64,000 nt of DNA from Eledone cirrhosa (GCA_964016885.1 OZ024760.1:19902001-19966000), one strand, 5' to 3'. Positions 3,778 through 63,782 are shown, numbered from the stretch's first letter. The notes: generated by a model from the sequence alone, not told the origin. A program made the numbers and translations.

Positions 3778-4164
3778 GTAGATATATATATAGAGAGGGA
3801 TAGTGACTATAACAACAACAACTATACAAAAAAGCCAAATTGATTACAATTCATCAATTATGTTCTTTTGTTTCCATCTTTAAATCTCGATAGCCTTTCC
3901 TCTCTTTTCCTTTCACTTTCCTTTCTCCTTTCCTCTCATTCTCTCTCACTCTCTTACAATCTTTCTCTCTCACACACACAGTTCCTCTCTCTTTCTCTCT
4001 CACACTGTTTCTCTCTATCTTTAACTCTCTCTCCCTCTCTCACACTTTCACCCTTTCTTTCTTGCTATAGTTTTCACTCAAGTCTCTCCCTCAAGATTGT
4101 GTGTATGTGTATATATGTGTGTGTGTATTTGTGTGTGTGTGTTATATGTATAAATATATATATA

Positions 4165-4505
4165 TAGGTGTGTGTGTATATATATATATATGTGTGTGCG
4201 TGTGTGTATATATAGCTGTGTATGTGTGTGTATATATAGCTGTGTATGTGTGTGTATATATAGCTGTGTATGTGTGTGTATATATAGCTGTGTATGTATG
4301 TGTGTGTATATATGGCTGTGTATGTATGTGTGTGTATATATAGCTGTGTGTGAGTGTGTATATATAGCTGTATGTGTGTGTATATATAGCTGTGTATGTG
4401 TGTGTATATATAGCTGTGTATGTGTGTGTATATATAGCTGTGTGCGTGTGTGTATATATAGCTGTGTATGTATGTGTGTGTATATATAGCTGTGTGTGAG
4501 TGTGT
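4165..4505. repeat. Minisatellite of about 24 bp (tatatatagctgtgtatgtgtgtg)
   Basis: Repeated tatatagctgtg anchor. Confidence 0.85.
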
Positions 4506-4879
4506 ACTATTTCTCGTTTCTCTTTTACCTTGTTGCTTCTTGAAGTTTGGGGAACAATTAATTCCGTCTAAATTCAATGACCAAACATTACATACAGGTG
4601 CTTGGTTATTATTAAATATATATATTTTATATTGTATAATACTGTACAATAGTGTTTTATATGGTACTATATTGCATTGTTCTATATTATGCCATATTGC
4701 ATTGCATCACATATTGTATTGTGTTGTTACATATTGTATTGTTTATTACATATCGTAGTGTTTAATACATATTGTATCATGTTATACAGTGCTGAATTTC
4801 AATAATATTGTGTTGTTATATATTGTACTGTGTTGGACTGTTATGTGTGTTATTACATATTGCAATGTATTACTGTACT

Positions 4880-5495
4880 GTCATATTGTAGTTATATTGA
4901 AGTCATATTGAAGTCATGTTGAAATCATATTGTGTTCATATTGTAGTCATATTGTGTTCATATTGTAGTCATATTGTGTTCATATTGAAGTCATATTGTG
5001 TTCATATTGAAGTCATATTGTGTTCATATTGAAGTCATATTGTGTTCATATTGTAGTCATATTGTGTTCATATTGGAGTCATATTGAAGTCATATTGTGT
5101 TCATATTGAAGTCATATTGAAGTCATATTGTAGTCATATTGAAGTCATATTGTAGTCATATTGAAGTCATATTGTAGTCATATTGTGTTCATATTGAAGT
5201 CATATTGAAGTCATATTGTGTTCATATTGAAGTCATATTGTAGTCATATTGAAGTCATATTGAAGTCATATTGTGTTCATATTGTGTTCATATTGAAGTC
5301 ATATTGAAGTCATATTGTAGTCATATTGAAGTCATATTGTGTTCATATTGAAGTCATATTGTGTTCATATTGAAGTCATATTGTGTTCATATTGAAGTCA
5401 TATTGAAGTCATATTGTAGTCATATTGTGTTCATATTGAAGTCATATTGTGTTCATATTGAAGTCATATTGAAGTCATATTGTAGTCATATTGAA
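4880..5495. repeat. 11-bp minisatellite tcatattg(aag/tag/tgt)
   Basis: About 55 units with an invariant tcatattg core and three main 3-nt variants. Confidence 0.95.
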
Positions 5496-6379
5496 GGGTT
5501 TTAGAAATAAAGGAAATTGTTAGAAATATAGAAATATATGCTAAAAAATTTTTAAAAATAAGATACTGTTGAAAAAAATGATGTTGTTATTGGTGTTGTT
5601 GATTTTTTATGATGCTGGTGGTGGTGATGATGATGATGATGGTGATAATGATTTTAATGTTATGTTGGTGATGAGGTTGATGTTGCTGATATTGTTGTTG
5701 GTGATGTTGATGGTAATGTTATGTTGTTGATGGGAATGGTATGTTGTTGGTGATGATGGTGATGGTAATGGTATGTTGGTGATGCTGATGTTGATGGTAA
5801 TGTTATGTTGGTGATGCTGATGGTGATGGTAATGGTATGTTGTTGGTAATGGTATGTTGTTGGTGATGATGATGGTATGTTGTTGGTGATGCTGATGGTG
5901 ATGGTAATGGTATGTTGTTGGTGATGCTGATGTTGATGGTAATGTTATGTTGGTGATGCTGATGGTGATGGTAATGTTATGTTGTTGGTGATGCTGATGT
6001 TGATGGTAATGGTATGTTGGTGATGCTGAAAGTGATATCTACGATGTTGCTAATGCTGTTGTTGTATATCTTATACAGCTGTTGCTACTATCGTTACAGC
6101 TGATATATTTGTTGCTGATGTTGTTGATGTTGCTGTTACTGTTGATGGTGATGGTGATGGTAGTAGTGTGGTTGTGGTGATGCTGGTAGCAGTTGTTATT
6201 GTTGACAACAATATTGCGGTTGCTGCTGTTGTTGTTGTTGTGGTTGTTGCTGTTGTGGTTGGTGTTGCTGTTGTGGTTGCTGCTGTTGCTGTTGTTGTTA
6301 TTGTTGTAGTTGTTGTTGCAAGGAGTAGCTAGTGCAACAGTAGCAGAAACCATTTTAACCATCATTCACGGAAACACGG

Positions 6380-33270: not shown

Positions 33271-36176
33271 GATATAGATATATATATACATCGAAAGAAA
33301 AATTACATTCTGTGTTCACATCAACTCATTTTTCTCACCCCAATCTCACACAGTCTCTCTCACACATAAACACACACTCATATGTATGTATAGTGTGTAT
33401 ATATATTTTCCTGTTCAATTAACTACGTTTCTCTGTATACTTTATACATTAAAATCTTTATATTCCTTTTCTGCTATTCACTACAACTAGAATTATATCC
33501 ACCTCCATAATCACTATCTATACACTATTTACACAACTTTCTATCAACATTATAATGTATTCCTTGTGTAACAAAACACGCCTGAAACTGGACGGTATCT
33601 CAAAATCTTTCTATTTCCATATAAAAATATTGATCTCAATCAATCGCTCATCACCAGATAGATACATAATTCAATATTTGTTTATATTTTTATTTGTTGT
33701 TGTTGTTTCTTTCAAACTTGGTTTATCCTATTTAACTCTTTTGCTATCTAACTGCTTAAAATCTCCATGATTCGATGATGCCTGACAGTTTTTGTTAAAG
33801 TGTTTGTATTTATCTAAAAACCTTCCATCATAATCTACAATATAATAAGGGGAGGAGTGTGGGACTGTGTCCTGAATATATTTTTTGTATCCCGTTAGTA
33901 AAATATGTTGGATTACTTTGAAGAAATGAATAACTATTACATAATTTATCTACTAAATTTCGTAGCTGTTGATTAAACATAAATATTCTTATATATAATG
34001 ATTGCTTATTTTAAGATTCACTTCTTTTAAAATTTTCAAATGTCTACACTTCCAGTTAGTGTCGATTATATCTTAACACTTATTACATCACTTATGTAAA
34101 CATTCATATATTTGCATCGTTATATAAGGTTTATATTCCTGTCACTAATTTTCTTCTTTTTTGTTTTCATAAAATGTTGCCGCACTGCAGTTTATATATA
34201 ATATCGTCTTTTTTAAATATATCATGGATTACTTTACTGATTACAGAAGACAGTGTAACACAGTCTCTTCAATTTCTGTGCATATTGTCAATTACGATTT
34301 TATTTGACATATCATATCTACATGCATGTATATTTGCGTATCAATATACACACTACACAGGCTAGCAGAAAACCATCCAAAGGGTGGTTTTTCTGCTAGT
34401 TTTATGTAAAAACCTTTGTTAAGTTATATTCCAAACACCAACTTAATAATGAGGAAGTCTGATATATAACTAAATCCCTTCAAAAATCTTGATTATTTTC
34501 AAAATTATTTTTTAAAAACTGACAAGCTGTGTGTTACATTAGAAATATGGTAATGAAAGGGTTAAAGTGTTTATATTTATCTAAAAACTTTCCATCATAA
34601 TTTTATGTGGAAGAACATTTATGTTGTAAATATCAACTAAATATTGAGAAAATTATTTTATTAAATCCTTTGAAATTCTTGATTAATTTCAAAATTATTT
34701 TTAAAAAACTATGAGCAAGTGTCTTATATTAAAAAACATGTTAATCATCATCATCATCACCGTAACTAGCCATTCATATAATATCAAAATCTCATAGATT
34801 TGATATTATGTGAGGTAATCATGTGAGGTAAAGCCTTAACTGTGAAAATATAACAGTAAATATAGAGTAATGTAAAATACTAAAGGGTTAAAGTGTTTAT
34901 ATTTATCTAAAACCCTTTCCATCATAATTTTATGTAAGAATCTTTATTAAATTTCATTCTAAATACCAGCTAAATAATGAGAAAGTTATATTACTAAATC
35001 TCTTTAAAAATCTTGATTATTTTCAAGATTATTTAAAAATCATAGGCAGTCTTTTATAAGAAATATGGTAAGAAAAGAGATAAAAGAAAATAAATTCTTA
35101 TGATGTCAGCAGAAAGTGGTTAGCTATGATTGGAACTCTGTAAACCAATAAATGGATAAACAGAAGCAATGAACCAATAATTCAATACTAAATAGATTAC
35201 ATAATAGTAATCCTATTGATAAATATTGGGGGTGGAGTGATGTGGAGGTGGGTGATAGTGATGGTAAGGGTGGTGGTGGTGGTGGTAGGGTTAACTAAGT
35301 AATTTTTATTGTTGCTTTATCTTGAGTTTGAATAATAAGGATGGTGATAATGATGGTGGTGGTGGAGGGGTGATGGTGGTGGTGGTGGTGGTGAGGGTGG
35401 CGGTGGTGAGGGCAATTGTGGGGGTGGGTGTAAATATGGTGGTTGATGGTGGCGGTGGTGATGGGCGATGGTAGGGTGGGGGTGGGGGTGATAGTGGTGG
35501 TGGTGGGTGATGCTGATAATGATGGTAGCAGTGGTGGGGATGGTGGCAGCGATGGTGGTGATGAAATAGAAGGCAAGGAAGGAAGAAAGAGAGGAAGGAG
35601 AAATATTATAACTACTACTACTACTACTGGTGTTGTTGTTGTTGTTGCTACTACTACTACTAATAGTAATAAAAATAATATCAACTGTCGAGAGAGAAGA
35701 AGAAGAATACCAACAACAACAACAACAACTATTTCAAAAACTACCAAGAATTTTATTCCAGAAGAGATTCAGTGGAATATGAAGGAATTGGTAACAATAT
35801 AAGACAAAGCCAATAAAGGGGCCTCCTGGGGCCTTACTAATGTGTAGAATTAAAGGTGAAGATGGTAATTATGTAGAGATAGGGGTCATGTTGATAGGGG
35901 TCATGTTGAAGTTTCCTACAGTAATCTTAAATCACAAAGGATTTCAGATTGAAAACACACATTATTGTTAACTAACCCATATATACTTTCATATATATAT
36001 ATATATTTATAAATGTATATATATATATATATATATATACATTTATAAATGTATATATATATATATATATTTATAAATGTATATATAAATATATATATAT
36101 ATATTTATAAATGTATATATATATATATTTATAAATGTATATATATATATATATATATTTATAAATGTATATATAT

Positions 36177-36570
36177 ATACGATATTAACAAATGGAAACT
36201 ATATTTATAAAACCATATTTATTTCATTATACATATTTCAAGGACACCAAGTTAAATTATGGCGTGCTTTCATCAGATAAAATATAATATAGAGCAGTTT
36301 TATAATTAAATATTGACATACCCTTAAAGAATGCAACCAAGGGTATGTCAATATTTATTTATAAAACTGCTCTATATTATATTTTATCTGATGAAAGCAC
36401 ACCATAATTTAACTTGGTGTCCTTGAAATATGTATAATGAAATAAATATGGTTTTATAAATATAGTTTCCATTTGTTAATATCGTATTTTTACTCCAATT
36501 ATTTGTTGAGTGCTTTATATCAGTTATAAAAATATTTGCTTGTTGTATCCCAACAATTTAAATAGAAATT

Positions 36571-36574
<4 letters not shown>
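36177..36574. mobile_element. Fold-back hammerhead element (Penelope-like pLTR type): arms 36177-36325 and 36339-36487, tail 36488-36574
   Basis: Near-perfect inverted repeat of about 149 bp in (TA)n, with a hammerhead motif in each arm. Confidence 0.85.
36380..36444 (+). ncRNA. Type I hammerhead ribozyme motif
   Basis: tattttat-CTGATGA(36388-94)-aag.acacca[loop]tggtgt.ctt-GAAA(36425-28)-tatgt-ATA/atgaaata. A mirror copy lies on the minus strand at 36220-36284. Confidence 0.8.
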
Positions 36575-36605
<31 letters not shown>

Positions 36606-41757: not shown

Positions 41758-42210
41758 ATATTAATTCAAAATATTAACAAAATAGATATTCTTGTGATCA
41801 ATTATATTTTATTATACATATTTCAGAGGTACTGAATTAAGTTCAACAGTACGTCCTCATCAGATAAAATAAAATGATACATGACATACCCTGACATGGT
41901 TAGATGGTTAAGATTTAATCAAGGTAGTGATTTAATCAAGGTAGTGATCACTACCTTGATTAAATCTTAACCATCTACCATGTCAGGGTATGTCATGTAT
42001 CATTTTATTTTATCTGATGAGGACGTACTGTTGAACTTAATTCAGTACCTCTGAAATATGTATAATAAAATATAATTGATCACAAGAATATCTATTTTGT
42101 TAATATTTTGAATTAATATTAATAACTCTGGAAAATATGTAACTGTAGAGTGCTTCCAATCTACTGTAAAACTCATTCTTTGATGTATTCATTGAATCTT
42201 GTTTAACCCT

Positions 42211-54481: not shown

Positions 54482-57310
54482 CATACATACGTACATATGT
54501 ATATATGTGTGTCTATGTCAAGGCCATGGTTGTCACACAGGTTATATATATATATATATACACTGAAGGCAGTGATTTATCACAAGTGTTCCATAATCAA
54601 TAATAACATAGTGAATATTAGCTATTGATTTATGTGTTGTTTTTTGTTTTATTGTTGTCATTTTCCCTGATTGATAGTTTCTCTGACAATGTGAACAATT
54701 TATAATAGTATCAGAACTGTTTACTGTATTGATATAGAAGAGAGATTGGTGGGGAGGGGCAGGAAGGGGGAGAGAGAAAAGGGAGGGGAGGAGAAAAACT
54801 AAAAGAAAGAAAGAAAAAAAGGAAGAAAAACTGAATGAAAGAAAGAAGGAGAGAAAGAAACAAAGAAGGAAGGAGAGAAAGAAAGAAAGAGGAAGTAAGG
54901 AATGAAGGAGTTTTGAAGAAGAACAAGAAAATAAAAATGTCAACATAATTTTGAATGGTTTCGAAAACAACATAAAACATCTCTTGATTCTTGATATTCT
55001 CCAGAACCAATGAAGCAGACTCTTGGACAAACAATAAATTATGGAATAGTCCCTAATTTATATTGTCATAGTTTCAGGACAATATCTATTGTGTAAAATA
55101 TGGTTGTTGTTTCTTGTGTTGTGGTGTGGTGTTGTTGTTGTGTGGTGTTGTGAAGTGTTGTGTTGTCTTGTTGTGGTGTTGTAGTGTATTGCTCTTGTGT
55201 GGTGTGGTGTTGTGAGATGTTGTGTCGTGGTGTTGTTGTTGTTGTGTGGTGTTGTGGTGTTGCTGTTGTGTTGTGGTGTTGCTGTTGTGGTGTGGTGTTG
55301 TGGTGTTGCTGTTGTGGTGTGAGGTCTTTATTCTGCTTTGTTCTGTGTACTTGAGGTTTTTCGATAGGGTGGGCTTCATTTGTAGCAGGTTTTTCAATGA
55401 CAAACGTTGCTAGGTCCCTCCCTTTGTTTAACTTTTCTCCATTTCTAGAGAGGGAGAGAGTGAGTGAGATAGATAGATCGATAGAGGGATGGATAGATAG
55501 ATAGATAGATAGATAGATAAATAGAGGGAGAGAGAGGTAGATAGATGGATAGATAGATAGAGGGAGAGAGAGGTAGATAGATAGATAGATAGATAGATAG
55601 AGGGAGAGAGAGGTAGATAGATAGATAGATAGATGGTGAGAGAGAGAGAGAGAAAAGGATGCCTCTGTGAGTGGGATATTAACTTAGAGTGTAAGCGAGC
55701 TATATAAAACCCAATGCATTCTATCTGAAGAACAACAACAACAATATAAAAACAAATGTGTTCTTTTGCTGGTTTCTTTCTTAGTTTTATTTCACCCAAT
55801 GAAACTCTATTGAAATATTTTTTTTATTTTTCTGTTCTCAATTTCAACATAATTTTCAGAAGGAAAATATTTGTGTTCCCTCCATTCAATATTTTATGAT
55901 GTGAGATTAATAACCCTTTTCATACAAAACTAAAACAGCCATAAGTTCCATGACATGAAACTGTTTGTTTTAAAATGTTTGTTTTAAAATGTTTATATTC
56001 ATCTAAAAACCTTCCAAGAACCTTTGTGAATTTACCCTTTAAACACCAGTTTAATAATGAGAAAGTTATTTTGATAAATCCCTTGAAATCTTTTTGTTAT
56101 TCATACAAGTATGGTAATAAAAGGGTTAAATAAGAACTGATTGTTTTATTCCAGTGTTTTTTTTACATTCTGGTTCCCTAAGTTGACAACAGGATGGTTT
56201 TATTGTGATTAGCTTTTACTGCTCTTCAATTTGTTAGACACCAGAGAGTGTCATTAAAGGGAGATTAAAATTAATTTTAGAAAATTTGTTTTTTGCTAAA
56301 CAAGAATAAAAGTATTAAAACAAGAAAGATTGAAATAATTTATAGGAAGAAAGAAAAGGAGGAAAAAGGGGAAGTGGGGAGAAAATTAAATAATGGTAAA
56401 AAAAAAAAAATACTTTTTTTTTTGTTGTTGCTGTTGTTGTTCAGATATTGTATTTGTTAAATACCACTCAACATTCTATCTTCTTCATCTGTTTTTATCT
56501 TTATAATTCGATTATGAGAATAATAATCTTCCATTCCAATATCTTCAGATCATGAGAATAATAATCCCCTCTTCTAATATTCTTTAGATTATGAGAATGA
56601 GTCTTTTTATAGGTATGTATGTGTATATATGTATATATATGTACATAGGTATATATATGTATGTGTATATATGTATATATATGTACATAGATATATGTAT
56701 GTATGTGTATATATATATGTATATATATGTACATAGGGATATGTATGTATGTGTATATATATATATGTATAAATATGTACATAGGTATATGTATGTATGT
56801 GTATATATGTATATATATGTACATAGGTATATATATGTATGTGTATATATGTATATATATGTACATAGATATATGTATGTATGTGTATATATATGTACAT
56901 AGGTATATGTATGTATGTGTATATATGTACATAGGTATATGTATGTATGTGTATATATGTATATATATGTACATAGGTATATGTATGTATGTGTGTATAT
57001 ATGTGTAAATATGCACATGTACACATATTCTAATTTTATTTTTGTATATATATATATATATATATATACAATATATTAATAAATGGAAACTATATTTATA
57101 AAACAATAATTATTTTATTATACATATTTCAAGGGCAACCAAGGTAGATTATGGTGCGCTTTCATCAGATAAAATACAGATTTGTTTTATAAATAAATAT
57201 TGACATACCCGGAAAAAAGACAACAAAAAAGACAACCTATCCAGCGAAGTTCAACCGTTGAGGTTGTCTTTTTTCCGGGTATGTCAATATTTATTTATAA
57301 AACAAATCTG

Positions 57311-57376
57311 TATTTTATCTGATGAAAGCGCACCATAATCTACCTTGGTTACCCTTGAAATATGTATAATAAAATA
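57311..57376 (+). ncRNA. Type I hammerhead ribozyme motif
   Basis: tattttat-CTGATGA(57319-25)-aag..cca[loop]tgg..ctt-GAAA(57357-60)-tatgt-ATA/ataaaata. A mirror copy lies on the minus strand at 57111-57176. Confidence 0.8.
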
Positions 57377-57424
57377 ATTATTGTTTTATAAATATAGTTT
57401 CCATTTATTAATATATTATATATA

Positions 57425-57612
57425 AGGCGGTGGATTGGCAGTATCGGTAGAGGGTCGGACGCCATGCTTTCCAGCATAGTTACGTCCCTTTACGATCTGA
57501 GTTCAAATCCCGCCGAGGTTGACTTTGCCTTTCATCCTTACGGGGTCGATAAAATAAAGTACCAGTAATACACTGGGTAATTGCTGGCCTTGTGCCTAAC
57601 GTAGAAACAATT
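57425..57612 (+). mobile_element. SINE family 1 inserted in one arm of the inverted duplication
   Basis: Matches 12977-13166 and is absent from the mirror arm. Confidence 0.88.
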
Positions 57613-58632
57613 AATATATTATATATATATATATATATACATATACAAAAATAAAATTAGAATATGTGTGTACATGTGCATATTTACACAAGTATATACA
57701 CATACATATACCTATGTACATATATATACATATATACATATACATACATATACCTATGTACATATATATACATATATGTTGAGTGGTATTTAATAAATAC
57801 AATATCTGAACAACAACAGCAACAACAAAAAAAAAAGTATTTTTTTTTTTTTACCATTATTTAATTTTCTCCCACTTCCCCTTTTTTCCTCCTTTTCTTT
57901 CTTCCTATAAATTATTTCAATCTTTCTTGTTTTAATACTTTTATTCTTGTTTAGCAAAAAACAAATTTTCTAAAATTAATTTTAATCTCCATTTAATGAC
58001 ACTCTCTGGTGTCTAACAAATTGAAGAGCAGTAAAAGCTAATCACAATAAAAACATCCTGTTGTCAACTTAGGGAACCAGAATGTAAAAAAACACTGGAA
58101 TAAAACAATCAGTTCTTTTATCAGATGAAAGCGCACCATAATCTACCTGGGTTGCCCTTGAAATATATATAATAAAATAATTATTGTTTTATAAATATAG
58201 TTTCCATTTATTAATATATTGTATATTTACTCCACTAAACTGTTGAGTGCTTTATATCAGTTATAAAAATGTTTAAGCTTGTTGAATCCCATCAAATTAA
58301 ATATAACCTCTGCATATATATTATATCATCATCGTTTAATGTCCGTCAGAGGCAAGTTGGGTCAGGTACCATCAGAGGCAAGTTGGGTCAGGTGACCATG
58401 TCTTGCTCATATAGAACTGTTTCTGGCTAGCTTTCTACAGATGGATGCCCTTCCTAATACCAACCACATTTACAGAGTGTGCTGGGTGCTTTTTTGAGAC
58501 TTACTACATTAGATCTGATCTGTTCTGCTTGTCTATCTTACAATAGCCATATGAGAGGCACCTCGTTTAGTATGTGGCTTTTCACTATGTAAGTCAGTCT
58601 TCGAACTAAGAAAGTTAGATATTAATAATAAT

Positions 58633-62898: not shown

Positions 62899-63132
62899 TA
62901 TTTAGTTATGTAATAAGCAACATAAGACAATTATTCCATTTACCAAAGGTTTCACGAAGACAGACAAGCTTGACACAGAAATCGTTCATCAGAATGAAAT
63001 TTTATTAAATTTTCTTTAAATAAAACTTCATTCTGATGAACGATTTCAGACGTCTGTGTCGAGCTTGTCTGTCTTCGTGAAACCTTTGGTAAATGGAATA
63101 ATTGTCTTATGTTGTTTATTACATAATTAAAT
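62899..63132. mobile_element. Fold-back hammerhead element of a distinct family: arms 62899-63005 and 63019-63132
   Basis: Inverted repeat of about 107 bp with a 7-nt indel. The right end abuts (TA)n. Confidence 0.8.
63027..63097 (+). ncRNA. Type I hammerhead ribozyme motif
   Basis: ttcatt-CTGATGA(63033-39)-acga..cagac[..]gtctg..tcgt-GAAA(63079-82)-cc[ttt]gG-TA/aatgga. A mirror copy lies on the minus strand at about 62935-62998. Confidence 0.82.
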
Positions 63133-63453: not shown

Positions 63454-63782
63454 AATATATAAGATCAAAAGATGGTTAAATGAGTTCCATGTATTTTATT
63501 ATGCGAATTTCAAAAACAAATATCATCATGCAATAACATTTGTGTTTTCATCAGATAAAATAGGAGGACATGATATGAAGGTTAAAAAACACTTGTGGAT
63601 AGTGCAGTTTTAAATCAACATATGTTGATATTTGTTTTTGAAATGCGCATAATAAAATACATGGAACTCATTTAACCATCTTTTGATCTTATATGTTATG
63701 TATACTCCAGTCCTACAAACTGTAGAGTGCTTCTTATCCGATATCTGCATTGCTTTATTGTACTACAATAAAACTCACCTCC

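What the first reader, a model, noticed from the sequence alone, without database searches (positions are those of the whole stretch)
56132..58314. Hammerhead hairpin at the centre of a roughly 2-kb inverted duplication that captured flanking DNA
Seen: the order is A(56132-56473), x, B(about 56900-57065), C'(57066-57238), loop, C(57261-57420), SINE, B'(about 57620-57776), A'(57777-58117), C plus tail(58116-58314). The mirror half skips about 430 bp (56474 to about 56900), then returns to a third ribozyme arm that alone carries the tail and has a mutated core (CAGATGA). The arms differ at several positions, and a SINE is present in only one arm, which argues against a simple assembly mirror. 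Inference: fold-back synthesis primed in the hairpin ran into flanking DNA, with two template switches, during integration or replication repair. The result is two direct hammerhead repeats enclosing captured DNA, a retrozyme-like architecture.
Basis: partly seen in the sequence, partly recalled or inferred. Interest (0 to 1): 0.75.

Follow-up and report, generated by a model that had tools for sequence, protein, structure and literature searches.

The report
Penelope hairpin with mirrored neighbouring DNA
A common jumping-gene insertion with back-to-back, ribozyme-motif-bearing ends carries, at this one site, a backwards copy of about 500 bases of its left neighbour, likely made later when DNA copying turned round on the insertion's own mirror image; it is a real but rare copying accident and probably not a new ribozyme element.

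Summary
The layout is real. A (56132-56474) recurs inverted at 98.3% and is single-copy elsewhere. A public contig starts exactly where two copies would fork. C is the hammerhead-bearing pseudo-LTR of a Penelope-like element with at least 634 arms in this genome. Back-to-back pairs of one tail-less and one tailed arm are its normal footprint (82 of 94 pairs). Only this locus of 154 has mirrored host flank. The 'loop' is sense element sequence and the centre matches an ordinary family junction, so a simple cDNA fold-back from the left flank does not fit. Best reading (0.5): an ordinary insertion came first; later a strand switched arm to arm, ran backwards through B, skipped 436 bases, copied A and returned by 2-base microhomology. 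Rival (0.35): the same path during integration. The retrozyme reading fails: the third core is mutated (0 of 184 other copies) and the 803-base unit never spread. Similar scars are published for L1, and this scan noted them at Penelope insertions in at least four other genomes.

The parts
56132..56474 (+). A: single-copy host DNA, template of the mirror
56475..56910 (+). x: 436 bases missing from the mirror (about 137 ordinary bases plus about 300 of TATG minisatellite)
56911..57060 (+). B: end of the minisatellite, a short unique stretch and the (TA)n target of the insertion
57061..57224 (-). C1: tail-less pseudo-LTR arm, element positions 190 to 27 (numbering from the common 5' start)
57111..57176 (-). 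type I hammerhead motif of C1, intact core; predicted cut near 57119
57225..57238 (.). junction 1: 12-base templated duplication plus 2-base microhomology; apart from the duplication the same junction as the ordinary insertion L003
57237..57424 (+).
57311..57376 (+). type I hammerhead motif of C2, intact core, one stem II pair broken; predicted cut after 57368
57425..57609 (+). SINE with tRNA-like A and B boxes (read from the sequence), inserted later; 18-base target duplication at 57407-57424 and 57610-57627 carries a C2-specific base in both copies
57628..57777 (-). B': inverted copy of (TA)n and B
57776..58117 (-). A': inverted copy of A; microhomology AT at its start and TT at its end
58116..58316 (+). 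C3 plus 87-base tail: tailed arm, element positions 77-277, ending on a short (TA)n; hammerhead core CAGATGA, stem I cut to 6 pairs; predicted cut site 58171

Best explanation
A Penelope-like retroelement left back-to-back ends in a (TA)n repeat here, and a likely later DNA copying or repair event turned round on that mirror image and copied about 500 bases of the left flank backwards before rejoining the tailed arm. Step 1 (inferred from the family pattern and from published in vitro work on another Penelope-like element): the element's enzyme cut (TA)n and extended both ends from two fixed sites on one RNA. This gave a complete tail-less arm (positions 190 to 1) on the left and a tailed arm (25 to 277) on the right, joined by 2-base microhomology as in locus L003. 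Step 2 (inferred): a nascent top strand in the left arm switched, by the long homology between the arms, onto the opposite strand of the right arm. It then ran backwards across the original junction, through the complete arm, (TA)n and B. This is why the centre looks like an ordinary junction turned round, with the complete arm on the right. Step 3 (junctions shown, process inferred): it slipped 436 bases from the minisatellite to the end of A (microhomology AT), copied A, and returned to the tailed arm at position 77 (microhomology TT). Step 4 (shown by the target duplication): a SINE inserted at the end of C2 after one substitution had arisen there. The result is probably inert: the third hammerhead is predicted to be crippled.
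For: Family footprint: 82 of 94 head-to-head pairs have one tail-less and one tailed arm; 221 of 238 young arms end at one of two fixed sites. Junction 1 matches L003's ordinary junction, and 9-18-base templated inserts occur at other ordinary junctions. All three arms share a T found in only 2 of 176 other young arms, so they come from one source RNA. C1 and C2 share a G that C3 lacks; at that site the two arms of ordinary pairs were G against A in 0 of 52 cases (48 A/A, 3 G/G, 1 C/A), so C1 and C2 share a DNA ancestor. Duplication-age lineages carry 5 changes in 1008 bases (0.5%), while C3 carries 3 rare changes in 201 (P about 0.08 if equally old). A first switch by inverted-repeat homology and a second by 1-9-base microhomology is the published route for human inverted rearrangements (PMC11293582, passages).
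Against: The dating rests on a handful of changes. One of C3's three lies 7 bases from the junction, at the centre of a quasi-palindrome, and may date from the event itself (then P about 0.26). The shared G is an A-to-G change that one reverse-transcription error, RNA editing or later conversion between the arms could also give. No intermediate allele (ordinary pair without mirror at this site) was seen. The arm-to-arm switch leaves no visible junction, so it is inferred. The outer ends and the inner 5' end all sit at natural element ends, which integration-time repair explains equally well.
Confidence: 0.5

Rival explanations
1. One event at integration. The tailed cDNA end on the right invaded the left flank at the start of A, copied A, B and the complete tail-less cDNA to its run-off end, and was joined to the trimmed left end. 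Alternatively the left end was hairpin-capped or replicated before ligation and one arm was then joined to the right end.
For: Every junction involves a natural or free cDNA end: position 1 is a 5' hot spot (38 of 150 arms in pairs). All three arms come from one source RNA. L1 insertions in cell clones show inversions, an inverted duplication and templated local DNA at integration (PMC11702581: section 7; legend of Fig. S9C; foldback passages). The anole element cleaves and extends both strands in vitro (PMC11167929).
Against: It needs the G shared by C1 and C2 to be a copying error, an edit or a conversion (0 of 52 ordinary pairs are discordant that way). It must rebuild a junction identical to an ordinary one. 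C3 looks somewhat older than the mirror.
Confidence: 0.35
2. RNA route or retrozyme: a transcript starting at the pseudo-LTR read through B and A and was reverse-transcribed back into the same site, or the two direct hammerheads release a mobile 803-base RNA.
For: The middle segment starts exactly at the common 5' start of the element and reads C2, B', A' in one direction. Capture of host DNA between pseudo-LTRs is described for rotifer elements (PMC3846280, passages).
Against: The skip has no GT..AG ends (junction sequences). A' exists only here. C3's core change is in 0 of 184 other copies and its best fold is a different hairpin. Metazoan hammerheads of this type are reported to need a dimer and to cleave weakly (PMC4209133, passages). 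Re-insertion into the same site needs an extra coincidence.
Confidence: 0.06
3. Assembly artefact: a mirrored read or two haplotypes fused in inverted orientation.
For: No record bridging A' and the third arm was seen, and the one contig over A' carried the left copy's bases at both substitution sites in the laid stretch. No long reads were examined.
Against: The arms differ by substitutions, a 436-base gap and a SINE with a target duplication. That contig (run X1, depth 4.4) begins at the first base shared by A and A', and its 323-base length equals the span of 31-mers shared by the two copies as measured on A'. This is what reads holding both copies would give after bubble collapse. X1 may be the assembly's own sample, so it tests the assembly and not the population.
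Confidence: 0.04

Closest known systems
Insertions of endonuclease-bearing Penelope-like elements with an inverted 5'-truncated pseudo-LTR and a one-sided tail (PMC3846280 and PMC8557442, passages; PMC11167929, parts 1-2 of 4)
   Same: Head-to-head arms, two fixed 3' ends, (TA)n target, type I hammerhead with a short palindromic helix III in the pseudo-LTR, and a linked reading frame with YRDD, a cysteine-rich linker and a GIY-YIG-like end.
   Different: The tail is about 87 bases, not 30-40. An inverted copy of host flank and a third arm sit inside the insertion, which is not part of the described footprint.
Inverted duplication or foldback of local DNA at L1 insertions (PMC11702581, section 7, foldback passages, legend of Fig. 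S9C)
   Same: Local DNA copied backwards and joined to a reverse-transcribed end.
   Different: A different element class. Those events were caught at integration in cell clones; here the mirror includes a whole cDNA arm, an internal 436-base skip, and may postdate the insertion.
Inverted-repeat-mediated template switching, DUP-TRP/INV-DUP (PMC11293582, passages); ODIRA (search listing only)
   Same: Inferred first switch through an inverted repeat, backward synthesis, and a second junction with short microhomology.
   Different: About 1 kb rather than kilobases to megabases. The repeat is a 166-base retroelement palindrome. The return point is downstream, so host DNA is duplicated and not triplicated.
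Animal non-LTR retrozymes (bioRxiv 10.64898/2026.07.22.740005, passages)
   Same: Two direct type I hammerhead motifs derived from a Penelope-like pseudo-LTR bracket a non-coding stretch.
   Different: Not a tandem array, one core is mutated, the unit is single-copy, and no RNA evidence was obtained.

Membership tests
Endonuclease-bearing Penelope-like element (family of the C arms) | Linked ORF with reverse transcriptase followed by a GIY-YIG endonuclease | tested here: met
   Long copies carry a frame upstream of the same pseudo-LTR (L029 5373-6368; L092). A 92%-identical copy shows YRDD (L170). Pfam gave 0 hits for the two fragments scanned. Atlas look-alikes at 0.94-0.96 carry PF26215 (27-94% of members), one cluster also PF01541 GIY-YIG (48%). 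No complete ORF was examined.
Endonuclease-bearing Penelope-like element (family of the C arms) | Inverted 5'-truncated arm and a tail on one side only | tested here: met
   82 of 94 head-to-head pairs; two fixed 3' ends in 221 of 238 young arms.
Endonuclease-bearing Penelope-like element (family of the C arms) | Type I hammerhead motif in the pseudo-LTR | tested here: met
   Core CUGAUGA and GAAA, 8-pair stem I, palindromic helix III; stem II differs in sequence but stays paired across window families, judged by eye. No Rfam hit; activity not tested.
Neptune clade | Zn-finger-like motif between RT and EN, and placement in an RT tree | tested here: inconclusive
   A cysteine-rich linker is present (feature from PMC8557442); no tree was built.
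Non-LTR retrozyme | Tandem units, each with an intact type I hammerhead | tested here: not met
   One unit only; the second core is CAGAUGA, seen in 0 of 184 other copies.
Non-LTR retrozyme | The unit is amplified or dispersed | tested here: not met
   A occurs at full length only at this locus.
Non-LTR retrozyme | Self-cleaved or circular monomer RNA | not testable with these tools
   No RNA holder listed.
DUP-TRP/INV-DUP | First junction inside an inverted repeat, second junction with microhomology | tested here: inconclusive
   Second-type junctions are seen (AT, TT); the first is invisible by nature and is inferred.
DUP-TRP/INV-DUP | Inverted triplication flanked by duplications | tested here: not met
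   Host DNA (A, B) is present twice, not three times.

The most novel reading that the evidence does not exclude
The back-to-back ends that Penelope-like elements leave by the thousand are built-in seeds for local inverted duplications, and such an event is how new retrozyme units are born: it brackets captured host DNA between two direct hammerhead pseudo-LTRs and puts the element's 5' start in front of it. This locus would be a fossil of that birth step, stalled because one core mutated.
Probability: 0.07. Interest if true: 0.65.

Novelty: new variant of a known kind. Interest (0 to 1): 0.3.

Why it matters
How Penelope-like elements build and seal their mirror-image ends is still open, and rare scars like this constrain the models. 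The orientation of the loop excludes simple self-priming from the left flank, and the shared variant shows that two arms are DNA copies of one cDNA. If the later-switch reading holds, the many short palindromes these elements leave are a steady low-rate source of local inverted duplications (1 of 154 loci here; the other 153 give an upper 95% bound near 2%). As a single non-coding locus it has no evident function; no convincing protein-coding frame was seen in 46-64 kb (judged by eye).

Tried and rejected
Rfam scan of the whole window: 0 matches. Single-strand folding of the three motifs: no better than shuffles. Pfam on two ORF fragments: 0 families at E 0.1 and 10. The first variant count used two wrong column numbers and was redone; a position table was also off by one, so only its difference lists and one search are used. 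A Fisher test printed counts C3's changes twice and is not used. Second examples considered and rejected after reading the sequence: L129 and L093 (arm joined to another element family's hairpin), L014 and L137 (nested inside another family's inverted arms), L095 and L107 (tail present behind a SINE), L053 (two tail-less arms but no mirrored flank), L119 (unrelated 284-base insert). Splicing as the cause of the skip: no GT..AG ends. Sequencing runs: no RNA holder listed. Runs X4, X5 and X6 gave no cover of A', which shows nothing about presence; the B'/A' junction and the central junction were not tested against reads. Literature searches listed no paper that, by title or start of abstract, describes an inverted flank duplication at a Penelope-like insertion. 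The library lacks most subscription journals, and I did not see the supplements of the papers other than PMC11702581.

Full report
1. Observation. The layout A, x, B, C', C, SINE, B', A', C plus tail is in the sequence. A and A' are 98.3% alike, with 3 substitutions and 3 homopolymer indels. C1 and C2 differ at 2 of 162 sites. B and B' are 91.9% alike, mostly through slippage. A search of the genome with A gave 6 matches: the two here and four short weak ones. The SINE has an identical 18-base target duplication that holds a C2-specific base in both copies, so it came after the duplication had begun to diverge. In run X1 one 323-base contig begins at the first base shared by A and A', and 323 is the span of 31-mers shared by the two copies measured on A'. 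Only the contig's start was seen directly; its end is inferred from its length. Against this, it carries the left copy's bases at both substitution sites in the laid stretch, and no record bridging A' and C3 was listed. An artefact is unlikely (0.04) but long reads were not examined.

2. What C is. A search with 57225-57420 gave 1628 candidates, of which 40 were scored. Two exact 24-base patterns gave 56 and 578 matches. I fetched loci, and from the first 100 listed of the 578, and analysed 154 including this one. I left out 5 duplicates or refetched loci, 4 hits of A and 1 neighbouring stretch. Sixteen of the 154 have only 1.5 kb of flank on each side, and most others about 3 kb or more. Long copies continue upstream through about 1.8 kb into a reading frame with a cysteine-rich linker and a GIY-YIG-like motif, and a 92%-identical copy shows YRDD. 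Pfam found nothing; the Atlas look-alikes carry PF26215 and, in one cluster, GIY-YIG. C is therefore the pseudo-LTR of an endonuclease-bearing Penelope-like element, probably Neptune-type (no tree built). The host is probably a cephalopod (recalled look of its repeats, not tested).

3. The normal footprint. Of 238 young arms, 110 end at position about 190 and 111 at about 277; the ends I read lie on (TA)n. Of 94 head-to-head pairs, 82 combine one of each. Position 1 is a 5' hot spot (38 of 150 arms in pairs; the sample favours such copies). This matches the inverted truncated copy and one-sided tail in print (PMC3846280 and PMC8557442, passages). It also matches in vitro work in which an anole element cleaves and extends both strands and starts at two sites that define the tail (PMC11167929, parts 1-2 of 4). 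The same window holds three more motif-bearing hairpins and one solo motif. The hairpin and the lone tail are thus ordinary.

4. What is unusual. Of 256 arms in 154 loci, 183 join an opposite arm, 66 continue into element or other repeat sequence, 5 join plain flank, and 2 were flagged as joined to a local duplicate. One is this locus; the other (L129) is another family's hairpin. A second scan for self-repeats near young arms flagged 14 of 154 loci. Of the other 13, I read seven (L014, L044, L070, L074, L093 and L137 around the flagged repeat; L010 only around the element) and none showed mirrored host flank joined to an arm. L030, L036, L039, L096, L101 and L150 were judged from coordinates only. 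So 1 of 154, and 0 of 153 once the index case is removed (upper 95% bound about 2%).

5. Mechanism. Three facts constrain it. First, the loop is sense element sequence: the right arm is complete (1-188) and the left is cut at 27, so a cDNA from the left flank folding on itself does not fit. Second, junction 1 is the junction of the ordinary insertion L003 plus a 12-base templated duplication of a kind seen at other ordinary junctions. Third, all three arms share a rare T (2 of 176 other young arms), while C1 and C2 alone share a G; ordinary pairs were never G against A at that site (0 of 52). The simplest account keeps the original junction. An ordinary pair formed first. Later a nascent strand crossed from the left arm to the opposite strand of the right arm, ran back over the junction, the complete arm and B, slipped past x (microhomology AT), copied A, and returned at position 77 of the tailed arm (microhomology TT). 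This parallels inverted-repeat-mediated switching in human rearrangements (PMC11293582, passages), except that the return point is downstream, so host DNA is only duplicated. Divergence leans the same way but weakly: 5 changes in 1008 bases on duplication-age lineages against 3 in 201 on C3 (P about 0.08, or about 0.26 if the core change arose at the junction). For scale, arms of 51 ordinary pairs differ by 186 of 6763 bases. The rival is the same path run at integration from the free tailed end, or through a hairpin-capped or replicated left end, as proposed for L1 (PMC11702581: passages, section 7 and supplementary legends). I give 0.5 and 0.35; what they share, DNA-templated backward copying at a Penelope-like insertion, about 0.85. 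My reading before favoured integration; the variant counts and an earlier scan note read in the same turn moved it.

6. The ribozyme question. The motif is a type I hammerhead with an 8-pair stem I and a palindromic helix III, the kind reported to need a dimer and to cleave weakly in vitro (PMC4209133, passages). It is not an Rfam match. Releasing the 803-base unit needs both cuts. The third motif has U4 replaced by A (183 T, 1 G, 0 A in 184 other copies), a stem I cut to 6 pairs, and a competing hairpin as best fold. That U4 matters for cleavage is my recall of the hammerhead literature, not a test. Retrozymes are defined as tandem units each with an intact motif (10.64898/2026.07.22.740005, passages); this is not met, and A' has not spread.

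7. Novelty and verdict. Each ingredient is known; the combination at a Penelope-like insertion did not appear in four literature searches. This scan's earlier notes report the same kind of scar in at least four other genomes, with the same split between integration-time and later readings, and the two-armed footprint in this genome; these are unchecked notes and not support. The locus is a real, rare, probably inert scar with some value for mechanism. Interest 0.3; new variant of a known kind.

Noticed in passing
window 36170-36588, 41805-42072, about 62940-63085, about 63500-63562: Three more head-to-head hammerhead hairpins and one solo motif from other Penelope-like families or subfamilies, with different stem II and stem I sequences that stay paired.
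   Followed up: partly
window 57425; L010, L053 (both arms), L095, L107: The same SINE family has inserted several times at or next to the tail-less end of this element (AT-rich stretch near positions 178-190), twice in L053. This suggests a preferred target or shared AT-rich site choice.
   Followed up: partly
element positions 190-277; window 58230-58316: The tail of this family is about 87 bases, more than twice the 30-40 bases given in the papers read.
   Followed up: no
window 58115-58131: The core change T to A sits at the centre of a quasi-palindrome that the junction lengthens by one pair, 7 bases from the junction; it looks like a one-base micro-inversion made by a short template switch.
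   Followed up: partly
L132:227-1845 and 3867-5609: An older (93-94% identical) inverted copy of 1.2 kb of element interior plus about 400 bases of adjoining DNA, in changed order, lies 1-2.7 kb left of the element's 3' end; it may be a related rearrangement.
   Followed up: partly
L043:1600-2821: A three-armed structure (one inverted arm, then two direct copies of about 408 bases around about 160 other bases) of another family without a recognised hammerhead.
   Followed up: no
L119:3193-3476: A 284-base GC-rich sequence that matches at most one other fetched locus at any position interrupts the hammerhead stem II of a young arm.
   Followed up: no
L084:3370-3691 against 4614-4945: In this insertion the two arms are 99.7% alike over 332 bases upstream of the pseudo-LTR, a very young copy or one homogenised by conversion.
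   Followed up: no
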